Assembly: GCA_964486045.1 (NCBI GenBank)
Contig: CAZALK010000022.1
Location: 1 to 64,000, forward strand
Length of the DNA: 64,000 bases
Origin: an uncultured archaeon
GTDB taxonomy: Archaea; Asgardarchaeota; Lokiarchaeia; Sigyniarchaeales; SOKP01
Direction: 5' to 3'
Shown here in pieces: positions 22,710 through 58,827 of this stretch. The notes beneath the pieces were generated by a model. The model ran no database searches, was not told the origin of the DNA, and saw nothing but the letters and a program-made list of their open reading frames with translations. How positions within the stretch are numbered: the stretch's first letter is position 1; every line of letters starts with the position of its first letter. A program made the position numbers and the translations under genes.

Positions 22710-25120
22710 TTAAGTTCTACACATTCTTTTAAGTAAAGTTGGATCCACTATTTCTTTCGGTTTCCAACCTCTTTCTTTGAGGTATTCCTGTATTTCAGTT
22801 TTCATGTTAATAGGAATGTCTGCTTCAAGGCGAATGAATTTATCTAAATCGTTTGGAAACTGAACTCCTTTATATTTCCGTTCTAAATCAACCCAGTGGG
22901 ATAGTTTTATCATACGGCCTTTTGAATTGTCGGCAGGACGTATCACGAGTTTTGCCACTAAGCAGATGGCTTGTTCAATACTTTCAGCAGGAGTTAAAAG
23001 ATGCTCTGGTCCGGGACCTACAATGTGACCTTCGGTTCCATCTCGGGCATTGTAGACTTTCCATGTACTTTCATCATCCGCGCGACTAAGATACATACGA
23101 CGATACTCGGCACCATGTGGACCAATTACTGCTGGGATACCTAATCCGTTAGCCATACTTGCTATACTAGCTGCCTTTTGAGAATATGCGCCCCAAGCCA
23201 CACCTACTGCACCAAGACGATTCAAAATATAGTCTGCGATTTCTTCAAAATTGCCTCGTAGTGGTCTTCTCGCAAATATATTAGCAACTTTAATTGCTGC
23301 ACCCGTTATCCACGCGTCGGCGACACAGCTTCCAACGTTAACCAAGCCTCCACGATCGAAATCACCTGGAAATCTTTCATACAGAGTTTTACCTTCATCG
23401 TCCTTTACTAGACCTATGTCCATAGCCGCGCAACCGGAGACGCAAACTATATAATTTCGGATTAAAAATTCTTCTGCCATAGTATAGAGTTCTCGAATAC
23501 TGTGTGCATAATTTGAACATCCAATCAATGCAATAATGCCAGGGATCTCCCCAAGTACGATAGGGGCACCTACATTTCGAATTTCTGTGTCTAGAATAGG
23601 TCCGCGTCCCGATCTACATTTGTATCTTTCAGTTTTAATGTATTCACTTGATGCATACATAATTAAGGTTAAAGGAGAGACGTCTTTCATACAATCAGCC
23701 TCACATCTTCCACACGCTAAACACTCATCAAAAAGACTCGAGAGTAGAGTAAAATCCCCATCTTTTGCCAGACCTACAGCTTCAACAAGGGGTAAATCGT
23801 TTGGACAGTTTCTCTGACAATTACCACAACCATTACATCTCATTGCCATCTCTATAGAACCTTTCTCATCAGGAACACCACTTTTAGCATTTCTAATCGG
23901 TTTAATTTTTACAGCTGTTTCGGCGGCAACGGCTCCTGCTTTTGTTGGATTTAAAATTAAAACTCCATCTAACCTTCCACTTACTAAATCATCTACGATT
24001 TCATCAACTGGATCACCAGTTCTATCAGGTAGTCCAGCCATAACTTTTTCGTTAGTAGTGATATAAGGAGCACCAACTTTCTTAGCCTCGTCGTAAGTTT
24101 GCAACACTACACACTGTTCATCGACCATCACAACGTCAGCTAAACCAGAACGAATATATGTTAATTGTCTTGAAAATGAACCAATGATTTTTGCTCCATC
24201 GTAATACCTCGTTAAATCGTGAGCAGTGCAGCATATAGCTCCTACATCAAGCTTCTCATCTAAACCTTTCTCTCGTATATAATCAACTAATTCTACACCG
24301 GGTGCAACATTATGTCCAATCATCAAAATTGTTGCCTTGTTTTCAGTATCCATGGTACCCATACCGAGTTCTACAATTGGAGTGTCTGGTTCACCAACAG
24401 GCATCCCATATGCTGCGATTTGAATTGCATCCGAAACTTCCATTCCTATCGCGTCACATAAACCAGCTAAAAAACTTTTAGCTTCATAATCTATATGCGA
24501 ACTTTCTTGTCCGGTGTGACCTGCTGCTAAGAGTTGCGTGATCTGGTAGTTTACTCAGCAAGCGCGAATATCTTGCCAAAGTGTACCCAGTCCATCGCAG
24601 TCTCCAGATCATCCAGACTTTCCGGCTTAATTCCAACGATCAAGCGTGTTAATGGCATCTCTACTGCAATATTATTTCCAAAATTCAATGGAACGTTACC
24701 GTATTTCTCTCGAAGCCAGTGTAGTAAATGGTCGCCGTGCGCGCTGTTTCGAACTAGATTTTTAAACAAAACCTAGTGACACGCAGCGCCTATACAACAA
24801 GCAATCTCTACTATACGTGCATTTTGCGTTTCCATATTGATACCACAAGCCCCTGTTCTACCCTTAGATAAATTGCATTTACCGTATGTGCAAAGACAAC
24901 ACATATCGCAAATCGGCATATATGTTGGTTTGTACCTATCCATGAGTGTGAAAAACCAGTTCCGCAGCGTTGGTATTCCTGGGCGAGGAGTTGGACCCAT
25001 TGGTTCCCATTCAGTCTCATCACCATAAGAAATCCTGCCAGTCGTTAGCTCAAAGCCTTTAATCGTACCCAGCGGTCCCTTGTACTCATCTATTTTTATT
25101 TTTGCGCCTGTCTTTTCCAT
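22710..25120 (-). CDS. cdhA: CO dehydrogenase/acetyl-CoA synthase complex alpha subunit, interrupted by two short introns; join(24778..25120,24581..24747,22710..24548), 782 aa
   Basis: Three ORF pieces are colinear parts of CdhA (CDMCCLCTYGKC..GACG; ACH|SAHGDHLL; HTGQE; GHN; CCTAHD; DEQC; two ferredoxin CxxCxxC motifs; GSC). Removing 30+32 nt gives one uninterrupted frame. Confidence 0.93.
24549..24580 (-). other. 32-nt putative BHB-type mRNA intron 2 of cdhA
   Basis: Insert tttggcaagatattcgcgcttgctgagtaaac contains a stop and shifts the frame. Stem UUGGCAAG/CUUGCUGA. Excision gives DWVH|YQITQLL. Confidence 0.75.
24748..24777 (-). other. 30-nt putative BHB-type mRNA intron 1 of cdhA
   Basis: Insert actaggttttgtttaaaaatctagttcgaa has an in-frame UAG. 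BHB fold GCGCUG-CGUG-[UCA]-stem...UUCG-[AAA]-CAGCGC. Excision gives GAACHSAHGDH. Confidence 0.85.
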
Positions 25121-57081: not shown

Positions 57082-58827
57082 TTACTTTTTTGCAAACGGT
57101 TCAAGATCTATAGCTTCAAATATATCATCATTAGCTTCTATAGAACCAAGGAAGTGCCATTCACCTTCGTCGACATTCTGACCATTCGCATAAGTATTCG
57201 CCATGTTATAAAGTCTATTGAAATTCTCATAATGTAATGCAACCCGATTTTCAGCGTAATCTCTTGCTGACCAAGTTGTTATTAAAAATTGCCAATCACT
57301 GCTCTCTAATAATAACAGTTCTCGAGCCATCTGCTTAAGAATTTTAATGAGGTTAGGATTATTAGAATTTTTATACTTAGCTATAATATCTTCGCTTTTA
57401 GATTCACATTCATAAATTCGCTCCCACGTCCAGGTCGTCCACTCATTAAGCCAGACCCAGTGAGAGCTTGCTTGACCCCAAGAGCCTTCAATCACACTTA
57501 CTACTTTATTGGGTGGGTTTTCTTCGAGATAAAGTCTAGTATTAGTTAATTCTATCTCAGGGTCATCTTCCATCCATCGTAAAACGCGTGCAATCCACCA
57601 ATTTCCTTCAAACCACCAGTGTCCAAAGAGTTCTGCATCATAGGGTGCCACAATTATACCATTTTTCCCAAACTTATTCTTATATTCTCTTAAAATGTCT
57701 TTAGCTAAATTAATATAGTGACTGGCATTTTCATCCAATTTTCCAGGAATATCATCTGGCCAATATAGCATCTTCTTTCCCAAATCAAGCTTAGGGCTGG
57801 TAACACGCCAATATTTGAGTCCTCCAGGATAATGCTTCTTGTGGAAATCTAAGTACTCTGCACAACCCGGATATCCATGTTCCCCGCTCCATACTACGAT
57901 TCCGGTCTTGTCATCTCTCGTGAAAAAACCGACTGGGGCTCCTGTTGATGGATCTGTAGAGATGAGATACGGTTCATACTGGGATTTTTCAAAAGAGGTT
58001 GGAATTTCTTCGTATTGAGATTCAAATTGCTTCCAGAGTTCAGCCAATAATGGAAACCTAGCAGCATAAACTCCTTGTGATTTTCCTCCCAATAATAAAG
58101 CTGTATCAATGAAGAAATACTTTAAACCGTTTTTAGCAAGAAAATATTCGATCCCAGGACGTTCGTATTCTTCGTCTGTTATTGGATTTTTCCACTTGTA
58201 TCCTGGACGGTAAGCACATTCTGGTAACCATGCACCAGTAGGAGCCCTTCCAAAATGCCGTTTATAACTATCAACAGCAGTTTTGAATTGAGCATCTATT
58301 GAAGTTTCTTTAGAAAGAAGCGGAGTATATCCGTGTGTTGCACCACATGTTATTATATCTAAAAGACCCTTATCTTGCAAATCCTTAAACGCACCTACAA
58401 TATCCCTATTGTATCTACGGATAAAGTTATCCTTCACCCTCGAATAGAACTCTTGCCACCATTTAGTTAACTTGATTCTTCCATCCTCGTATTTATTTTC
58501 AGTAAAATCCTCAAAATCAAATACTGCTGCATTATATTTTTCATCTAGATATCCAATAAACGCATCAACAAATCGAGGGTTTCGCAACATTTCACAAAGG
58601 ACTGGTGTAAGGCCAACAGTGAGTTTTGGATGATATCCATCATCAATTAGTTTATATAACTCCATCAATAGAGGAATATAGGTTTCAGCAGCGGCCTCAT
58701 TTATCCAATCCACTTTAGATAATATGATAAATTCATATTATTTTCCATGAGGCCAAACACCATGACCTATAACCCAAGGTAAATGGGCGTGCAAGACTAG
58801 ATTAAATGAACCTAAAATTTCAGTCAT
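57082..58827 (-). CDS. GH57 1,4-alpha-glucan branching enzyme interrupted by a 30-nt intron; join(58743..58827,57082..58712), 571 aa
   Basis: Exon 1 MTEILGSFNLVLHAHLPWVIGHGVWPHG lies upstream of an in-frame TAA. The rest has ETYIP, ATHG, WLPECAY, YDAELFGHWW and ESSDW. Confidence 0.9.
58713..58742 (-). other. 30-nt putative BHB-type mRNA intron of the GH57 gene
   Basis: Insert aataatatgaatttatcatattatctaaag has an in-frame UAA and a perfect 9-bp stem AUAAUAUGA/UCAUAUUAU. Excision gives WPHGMDW. Confidence 0.8.

What the first reader, a model, noticed from the sequence alone, without database searches (positions are those of the whole stretch)
24741..24790. cdhA intron 1: near-canonical BHB splitting the conserved C-H-x-x-H-x-x-H segment
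The minus strand reads GCGCUG CGUG UC^A CUAGGUUUU guuua AAAAUCUAG UUCG AA^A CAGCGC. This gives a 6-bp exon-exon helix, a 4-nt central helix with one U-U mismatch, two 3-nt bulges and a 9-bp intron stem. Ligation gives GCG UGU CAC AGC GCG CAC (ACHSAH), matching the CdhA ACHxAHGxHLL motif. The flanking exon codons (GGC GCT GCG / AGC GCG) are unusually GC-rich for this genome, as expected if silent sites are selected to hold the helix.
Basis: partly seen in the sequence, partly recalled or inferred. Interest (0 to 1): 0.9.

Follow-up and report, generated by a model that had tools for sequence, protein, structure and literature searches.

The report
tRNA-type intron inside archaeal cdhA gene
The only CO-dehydrogenase (cdhA) gene of this Loki-type Asgard archaeon is interrupted by a 30-base insert shaped like a tRNA intron, so its messenger RNA very probably has to be cut and re-joined by the tRNA-splicing enzymes, which papers describe inside a coding region for only one archaeal gene (cbf5).

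Summary
Window 24748-24777 (minus strand) is a 30-nt in-frame insert beginning A-C-UAG. It is missing, as an exact 10-codon gap (ACH|SAHG), from solved CdhA structures and from 145 distinct orthologues.

A motif this good at L=30 occurs 4 times in 10.4 million genome positions.

- Congeners carry 29-34-nt inserts at five other cdhA sites.
- At the junctions set by alignment, all 16 instances fit the "cut after bulge nucleotide 2" geometry. Shifted and mirrored registers do not.
- The stems covary.
- Exons of species that share an intron have dN/dS of 0.03-0.13.
- The genome encodes two EndA paralogues and RtcB, but no PylS or PylB.
- Its single RNA polymerase A' gene and a GH57 gene carry the same kind of insert.

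My genome-wide scans gave no reliable count. This scan has reported similar introns in other Asgard genomes and elsewhere in this genome. I found no paper describing them.

The parts
24778..25120 (-). cdhA exon 1 (343 nt, Met1 to the first base of His115)
   Evidence: ORF and translation. It aligns to CdhA 8riu residues 19-109.
24748..24777 (-). cdhA intron 1: 30-nt BHB-type insert with TAG at its second codon, a 9-bp stem and a 5-nt loop
   Evidence: Exact 10-residue gap against PDB CdhA. Absent from 145 distinct orthologues. Geometry c3/in9/out6 occurs only at this register. It is a unique sequence in the genome.
24741..24789 (-). Full hBHBh' motif (exon helix, central helix, two bulges, intron stem)
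   Evidence: Read from the sequence, folded and tested for geometry.
24581..24747 (-). cdhA exon 2 (167 nt, ..SAHGDHLL..DWVH)
   Evidence: Translation. It aligns to 8riu residues 110-164.
24549..24580 (-). cdhA intron 2: 32-nt frameshifting insert with a relaxed BHB (central helix 3/4 with a G-A mismatch, 8-bp stem, one extra A before the exon helix)
   Evidence: PDB alignments stop at residue 164 and resume at 165 in another frame. Coordinates, geometry. Relative G022 has the same insert at the same site. A different hairpin occupies the same site in metagenome locus L185.
22710..24548 (-). cdhA exon 3 (612 codons plus stop)
   Evidence: Aligns to 8riu residues 165-759 with E = 5e-204. Joining the three exons gives one open frame of 782 aa.

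Best explanation
The 30 nt at 24748-24777 are a bulge-helix-bulge (BHB) intron in the cdhA pre-mRNA.

Proposed mechanism (inferred, not observed): the transcript folds so that exon bases GCGCUG/CAGCGC and CGUG/UUCG, together with the 9-bp intron stem, present two 3-nt bulges on opposite strands, 4 positions apart. The archaeal splicing endonuclease EndA (here two paralogues, apparently an alpha-beta pair) cuts after the second nucleotide of each bulge (UC^A and AA^A). RtcB then joins the exons to give ..GCG UGU CAC AGC GCG.. (ACHSAH), which restores the conserved Cys/His segment. A second, 32-nt intron 167 nt downstream is removed in the same way.

Unspliced mRNA would stop at the TAG right after His115.

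Shown here: the fold, the exact gap, the enzymes in the genome, and conservation and covariation of sister introns. Inferred: cleavage and ligation in the cell.
For: (1) The gap is exact: 10 residues missing in PDB CdhA, and no insert here in 145 distinct orthologues from 54 genus genomes, 73 genome contigs and 77 metagenome contigs.

(2) BHB geometry appears only at the register set by alignment (c3, inner 9, outer 6). Shifts of +/-1 to 4 nt and the mirror geometry fail. A motif this good occurs about 4e-7 per position.

(3) The same rule fits a canonical 37/38 intron in a tRNA-Ser(GGA) gene of this genome.

(4) All 16 insert instances checked at alignment-defined junctions (8 families, cdhA sites aa44, 70, 77, 115, 170 across the genus) give 3-4 of 4 central pairs at the cut rule. 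All restore the conserved peptides. Further hairpins in three metagenome and genome-contig loci (L071, L124, L185) and a sixth site (aa73, L190), whose cuts were set by alignment or by a motif search, fit the same rule.

(5) Stems covary: C-G to U-A and A-U to G-C in the aa77 family, A-U to G-C in the aa70 family. At aa70 five unrelated hairpins keep the same tail, which pairs with exon UGCC.

(6) Species that share an intron have intact spliced frames of 781-782 aa and dN/dS of 0.03-0.13 at dS up to 3.6.

(7) G000 has one cdhA only, and its spliced frame is 782 aa.

(8) EndA is present as two paralogues. One has the Y/H/K catalytic residues; the other lacks the His. RtcB is present once.

(9) The single RNA polymerase A' gene has a 30-nt insert with TAA between GHFGH and IELA, an exact 10-residue gap against 2waq. 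A GH57 gene in this window has the same.

(10) Contigs from another study's metagenomes carry a diverged copy of intron 1. There C2-G24 has become U-A, G6-U20 has become A-U, and central G-U has become G-C.
Against: No RNA evidence: I saw no spliced junction and no excised circle.

The central helix has a U-U mismatch and a G-U pair, and the minimum-energy fold prefers a 10th stem pair to the central helix.

In the environmental variant, one exon change (G to U at 24782) would break a central pair. Only about half of that contig's differences were listed, so its helix cannot be fully judged.

Among assembled genomes, intron 1 occurs only in G000, so it has no direct covariation of its own.

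My genome-wide searches for BHB motifs that rescue reading frames showed no excess over shifted or mirrored controls unless the stem was >=8-9 bp (15 vs 7; 8 vs 1). The size of the system in this genome is therefore not established.
Confidence: 0.86

Rival explanations
1. cdhA of this genome is a pseudogene. The 30-nt and 32-nt inserts are inactivating insertions that merely happen to be hairpins.
For: The gene has two disruptions. Among assembled genomes intron 1 is found only in G000. There is no RNA evidence.
Against: Apart from the two inserts the frame is intact over 782 codons. It is the only cdhA/Prismane-family gene in a 99%-complete genome. Both inserts obey the BHB cut rule to the base. 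Inserts of the same kind persist across species under dN/dS of 0.03-0.13. The single-copy RNA polymerase A' gene has one too. An independent environmental lineage keeps intron 1 with a compensatory pair change.
Confidence: 0.07
2. The ribosome skips the insert during translation (programmed bypassing, as in phage T4 gene 60 or the yeast mitochondrial byp elements). It would take off at CAC, just before the TAG and hairpin, and land downstream.
For: A stop codon directly follows the take-off codon, a hairpin starts there, and xAC occurs at both borders (CAC...AAC) in introns 1 and 2.
Against: Take-off and landing codons do not match (CAC vs AAC). In relative G022 they are CAU vs AAA at the intron 2 site, and the other cdhA sites show no matching codons. 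Bypassing does not predict a 4-bp helix between two 3-nt bulges at every junction.
Confidence: 0.03
3. The TAG is read as an amino acid (pyrrolysine or another recoding) and the protein carries 10 extra residues.
For: The insert is in frame and TAG is its only stop.
Against: No PylS or PylB scores above the family cut-offs. None of 145 orthologues has extra residues here. The insert splits a conserved Cys/His segment. Intron 2 shifts the frame, and the GH57 and RNA polymerase inserts carry TAA.
Confidence: 0.01
4. The insert is an assembly or sequencing artefact.
For: The genome is a metagenome-assembled genome with 7.8% estimated contamination.
Against: The source-sample contig covers the site at word depth 233 without variants, and contigs from a different study carry a diverged copy of the same insert at the same place.
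Confidence: 0.01

Closest known systems
BHB intron in the cbf5 pre-mRNA of Crenarchaeota (Watanabe 2002; Yokobori 2009, PMC2738675; called the only coding-region case in PMC7714728)
   Same: A short intron inside a protein-coding frame, with bulge-helix-bulge geometry. It is presumed to be cut by EndA and joined by the tRNA ligase, and it is present or absent among related species.
   Different: The host is a Promethearchaeia (Loki-type Asgard) lineage and the gene is a metabolic enzyme (CODH/ACS alpha subunit). There are two introns in one gene and six sites across one genus. Splicing was shown experimentally for cbf5 but not here.
[quoted passage not shown]
   Same: The same motif and cut rule, which I confirmed on a tRNA-Ser(GGA) gene of this genome. 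There are two EndA paralogues, as in most Asgard genomes of that study. Gains are repeated and lineage-specific.
   Different: [quoted passage not shown] That preprint does not treat protein-coding genes.
BHB intron in the 5' UTR of Haloferax volcanii HVO_1309 (PMC7714728)
   Same: An mRNA that is an EndA substrate.
   Different: That intron lies in the untranslated leader and does not interrupt a reading frame.

Membership tests
Archaeal BHB (EndA-type) intron | [quoted passage not shown] | tested here: met
   The bulges are UCA and AAA. The central helix CGUG/UUCG has 3 of 4 pairs (C-G, G-C, G-U) and one U-U mismatch, so it is near-canonical.
Archaeal BHB (EndA-type) intron | Flanking helices h (exon-exon) and h' (intron) | tested here: met
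   6-bp exon helix and 9-bp intron stem.
Archaeal BHB (EndA-type) intron | Cuts at symmetric positions in the bulges give the correct mature sequence | tested here: met
   Cutting after bulge nucleotide 2 removes exactly the 30 nt that are absent from orthologues. The same rule reproduces a 37/38 tRNA-Ser intron of this genome.
Archaeal BHB (EndA-type) intron | Host encodes the splicing endonuclease and the RtcB ligase | tested here: met
   PF01974 matches twice (102 and 67 bits) and PF01139 once (557 bits).
Archaeal BHB (EndA-type) intron | Spliced RNA and excised (often circular) intron exist in the cell | not testable with these tools
   No RNA run holds this DNA.
Pyrrolysine-recoded TAG | PylS, PylB and the rest of the pyl system are present | tested here: not met
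   The best matches score 25.5 and 28 bits, against cut-offs of 178 and 348.
Programmed translational bypass (gene 60 / byp type) | Matching take-off and landing codons flank the skipped stretch | tested here: not met
   CAC vs AAC here; CAU vs AAA at the intron 2 site of G022.
Group I / group II self-splicing intron | Ribozyme core recognisable by Rfam models | tested here: not met
   No Rfam family matches anywhere in the window, and 30 nt is too short for a ribozyme core.
Multi-copy mobile insertion (MITE-like) | Further copies of the element elsewhere in the genome | tested here: not met
   blastn-short finds only the element itself. Other hits are 12-17 nt AT-rich words.

The most novel reading that the evidence does not exclude
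Promethearchaeia of this genus run a routine layer of mRNA splicing with the tRNA endonuclease. Short BHB introns are gained, replaced and lost within a genus, and they sit in ordinary and essential genes (cdhA, RNA polymerase A', GH57). They cluster near 5' ends and carry stop codons that silence unspliced transcripts. If so, close relatives of the eukaryotic ancestor already had to finish splicing before translation, which bears on how transcription and translation became separated.
Probability: 0.45. Interest if true: 0.85.

Novelty: new member of a known kind. Interest (0 to 1): 0.7.

Why it matters
Papers describe an endonuclease-spliced intron inside an archaeal coding region for one gene only (cbf5, Crenarchaeota). 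Here the sole gene for the catalytic CO-dehydrogenase subunit of the Wood-Ljungdahl pathway, central to the presumed metabolism of Loki-type Asgard archaea, can be read only after two such introns are removed. Related species show a turnover of similar introns at six sites.

This has three consequences.
- It gives a concrete, testable case of protein-gene splicing in the archaeal lineage closest to eukaryotes.
- Gene callers split or truncate these genes. The ORF list here shows cdhA as pieces of 115, 72 and 577 aa, so metabolic reconstructions may wrongly score such genes as broken or missing.
- The presence/absence series across one genus is good material for asking how BHB introns arise.

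Tried and rejected
RNA evidence: no RNA holder was listed for the cdhA stretch. Only DNA contigs could be laid.

Genome-wide census in G000:
- A BHB geometry scan combined with reading-frame rescue gave 448 hits. Controls gave 418 (mirror geometry) and 394-468 (shifted cuts).
- Stricter helices gave 20 vs 13-20.
- A codon-usage filter gave 187 vs 188-214.
- Closely spaced genes on the same strand swamp the signal, so I give no intron count.
- Only the in-frame subset with long stems showed an excess: 15 vs 7 at stems >=8 bp and 8 vs 1 at >=9 bp.
- The top 20 of 374 in-frame interrupted ORF pairs were mostly ordinary neighbouring genes.

tRNA control: ARAGORN calls for this genome's tRNA introns were mostly unreliable, so only one clean canonical control (tRNA-Ser GGA) was used.

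G022: its cdhA copy lies next to an N run and a foreign GC-rich stretch, so I used it only for the intron 2 site.

Window searches: ARAGORN and Rfam found nothing in the window.

Literature: three further searches found no paper on BHB introns in Asgard protein-coding genes.

Full report
WHAT IS THERE

On the minus strand of the window, an archaeal cdhA gene (alpha subunit of CO dehydrogenase/acetyl-CoA synthase) runs from 25120 to 22710. The ORF list shows it in three pieces of 115, 72 and 577 aa. Read straight through, the first two pieces are in the same frame and are separated by a TAG.

phmmer against solved CdhA chains aligns the read-through product with an exact 10-residue gap..IGAACH----------SAHG.. 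(8riu and 9c0q). The 30 nt at 24748-24777 are therefore extra.

A second break lies 167 nt downstream. The PDB alignment of the upstream frame ends at 8riu residue 164 (DWVH), and the alignment of the 577-aa frame starts at residue 165 (YQITQ). That leaves 32 extra nt at 24549-24580.

Removing both inserts gives one open frame of 782 aa.

THE FOLD

It consists of:
- exon helix GCGCUG/CAGCGC;
- central helix CGUG/UUCG, giving C-G, G-C, U-U and G-U;
- bulges UC^A and AA^A;
- a 9-bp stem with loop GUUUA.

RNAfold gives -20.7 kcal/mol, z = -2.9 against shuffles. Its minimum-energy structure adds a 10th A-U pair to the stem instead of forming the central helix.

I coded the BHB geometry as follows. 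On the 5' strand: outer helix, 4-nt central strand, 3-nt bulge, inner helix. The 3' strand is arranged likewise. The cut falls after the second nucleotide of each bulge. I checked this geometry on a canonical 37/38 intron of a tRNA-Ser(GGA) gene of the same genome, which it reproduces.

For intron 1, only the register given by the protein alignment satisfies the geometry (central 3/4, inner 9, outer 6). Shifts of 1 to 4 nt and the mirror-image geometry do not. Motifs this good at L=30 occur 4 times in 10.4 million strand positions, and two of the four are this intron and the PurM-like insert on C5 listed below. The intron sequence is unique in the genome, so it is not a multi-copy element.

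WHO HAS IT

The genome (5.18 Mb, 45 contigs, 99% complete) belongs to a genus of Promethearchaeota/Promethearchaeia (Loki-type Asgard) known from marine-sediment MAGs.

Intron 1 is rare.
- Of 54 genomes of the genus, 49 have cdhA, and only G000 has an insert at codon 115.
- None of 73 further genome contigs has it.
- None of 77 metagenome contigs that cover the site has it.

The insert is nevertheless real. The contig of the probable source sample covers it at word depth 233. Contigs from a different study's metagenomes carry a diverged copy at the same place. In that copy:
- stem pair C2-G24 has become U-A;
- G6-U20 has become A-U;
- U7-A19 has become U-G;
- the central G-U has become G-C;
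- one silent exon change (24782) would break another central pair.

Only about half of that contig's differences were listed, so this evidence is partial. Other contigs in the same runs lack intron 1 or intron 2 (loose ends reading CH|SAHGDHLL and DWVH|YQITQ). The introns are therefore polymorphic among close relatives.

SISTER INTRONS

Twelve loci from GTDB genomes of the genus, plus several genome-contig and metagenome loci, carry 29-34-nt inserts at other places in the first 170 codons of cdhA: aa44, aa70, aa73, aa77 and aa170.

I fixed each junction by alignment to intron-less orthologues and then asked whether the BHB rule holds there. In all 16 instances (8 families) the central helix has 3 or 4 of 4 pairs at the exact register, and the intron stem usually starts right after the bulge. 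Shifted and mirrored registers fail. Outer exon helices are often weak, which is a relaxed, HBh'-like form.

Stems covary.
- In the aa77 family, C-G changes to U-A and A-U changes to G-C or G-U.
- In the aa70 family, A-U changes to G-C.
- At aa70, five unrelated hairpins share the same junction and the same 3' tail GG(C/U)(A/G), which pairs with exon UGCC.

Conceptual splicing restores YMPICDMC and DMCCLCT(F/Y) in every case.

Species that share an intron have full-length spliced frames and dN/dS of 0.03-0.13 at dS of 0.2-3.6. These genes therefore stayed under strong purifying selection while carrying the inserts.

Intron 2 of G000 recurs in relative G022 with changes that keep the fold. Another hairpin occupies the same site in metagenome locus L185.

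MACHINERY AND OTHER GENES

G000 encodes two EndA paralogues of about 200 aa. One has the Tyr/His/Lys catalytic residues and the other lacks the His. This fits the two-subunit enzyme type that is known for broad substrate range (PMC5829648 abstract). RtcB is present once. PylS and PylB are not found above their cut-offs.

The same kind of 30-nt insert with a stop codon interrupts other genes of this genome.
- The single RNA polymerase A' gene, between GHFGH and IELA, with an exact 10-residue gap against 2waq.
- A GH57 gene in this window at 58713-58742, with an exact 10-residue gap against 3n8t.
- A PurM-like gene on C5.

An essential single-copy gene cannot be a pseudogene, so the cell must have a way to remove such inserts.

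RIVALS

- Pseudogene. This is made unlikely by the intact frame, the single copy, the exact geometry, and the persistence of sister introns under selection.
- Translational bypassing. The flanking codons do not match (CAC/AAC here, CAU/AAA in G022), and bypassing does not predict the bulge-helix-bulge geometry.
- TAG recoding. This fails because there is no Pyl system, no orthologue with extra residues, and the second intron is frameshifting.
- Assembly artefact. This is excluded.

LIMITS

There is no RNA evidence.

My attempts at a genome-wide count failed. BHB-plus-frame-rescue scans gave as many hits in shifted and mirrored controls as in the real geometry. Only long-stem in-frame cases were enriched (8 vs 1). 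I can therefore vouch for five inserts in four genes of this genome, but not for the "dense system" that first-stage notes suggest.

G000's GGC, GCG and AGC are minority codons among orthologues, yet 8% of intron-less orthologues could already form the full exon helix.

COMPARISON WITH WHAT IS KNOWN

The closest published case is the cbf5 pre-mRNA intron of Crenarchaeota. A 2020 paper still calls it the only BHB intron in an archaeal mRNA besides the 5'-UTR case it reports itself (PMC7714728).

A 2026 preprint documents heavy and repeated intron gain in Asgard tRNA genes, with two EndA paralogues in most genomes, but it does not treat protein genes. My searches found no paper on BHB introns in Asgard coding genes.

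This scan has reported the same phenomenon in other Asgard genomes and elsewhere in this genome. One of those reports states that the introns were missing from RNA-derived contigs in another genus. I did not test that claim.

VERDICT

This is a new member of a known kind of element (a BHB intron in an mRNA), in a new lineage and gene, with an unusually informative series of presence and absence across one genus.

Noticed in passing
window 58713-58742 (-): A GH57 glycoside hydrolase gene carries a 30-nt in-frame insert with TAA. There is an exact 10-residue gap against PDB 3n8t (WPHG|..|DWINEA), and the splice creates an AUG codon across the junction. The ORF list starts this gene too late, at GTG 58713.
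   Followed up: yes
window 24549-24580 (-): cdhA intron 2 is 32 nt long and shifts the frame. Its BHB is relaxed (G-A mismatch in the central helix, one extra A before the exon helix). G022 shares it, and L185 has another hairpin at the same site.
   Followed up: yes
G000 C13:44101-44130 (L207:702-731): The single-copy RNA polymerase A' gene is interrupted by a 30-nt insert ending in TAA between GHFGH and IELARP. The central helix GGAC/GUCU has 4 of 4 pairs and the stem is 9 bp.
   Followed up: yes
cdhA loci L027, L031-L036, L041-L043, L071, L124, L185, L190: All cdhA inserts in the genus lie in the first 170 of 782 codons. Site aa70 holds five unrelated hairpins with one conserved tail. Either the site is re-used or hairpins turn over quickly. 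The 5' bias is unexplained.
   Followed up: partly
cdhA i1, GH57, RNAP A', L124, L185, L190: Every in-frame (30-nt) insert I saw contains a stop codon, which would truncate protein made from unspliced mRNA. In-frame inserts without stops would have escaped my scans, so this may be a detection bias.
   Followed up: no
G000 C1, minus strand, about plus-strand position 370630: A class II aldolase-like gene has a single in-frame TAA where Tyr is expected (HTHSP*ATMLS), with no extra bases. It may be a point pseudogene or a sequencing error.
   Followed up: no
G000 whole genome: ARAGORN finds only 31 tRNA genes in a 99%-complete genome, and 20 of them have odd intron calls, including false tRNA-Pyl and tRNA-Stop calls. 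The tRNA genes appear to be heavily interrupted at non-canonical positions.
   Followed up: partly
L047 (NZ_DRFI01000012.1): The closest database relative of this cdhA (96% aa identity) sits on a 2.6-kb contig filed under a Maribacter sp. MAG. This is almost certainly a mis-binned Asgard contig.
   Followed up: no
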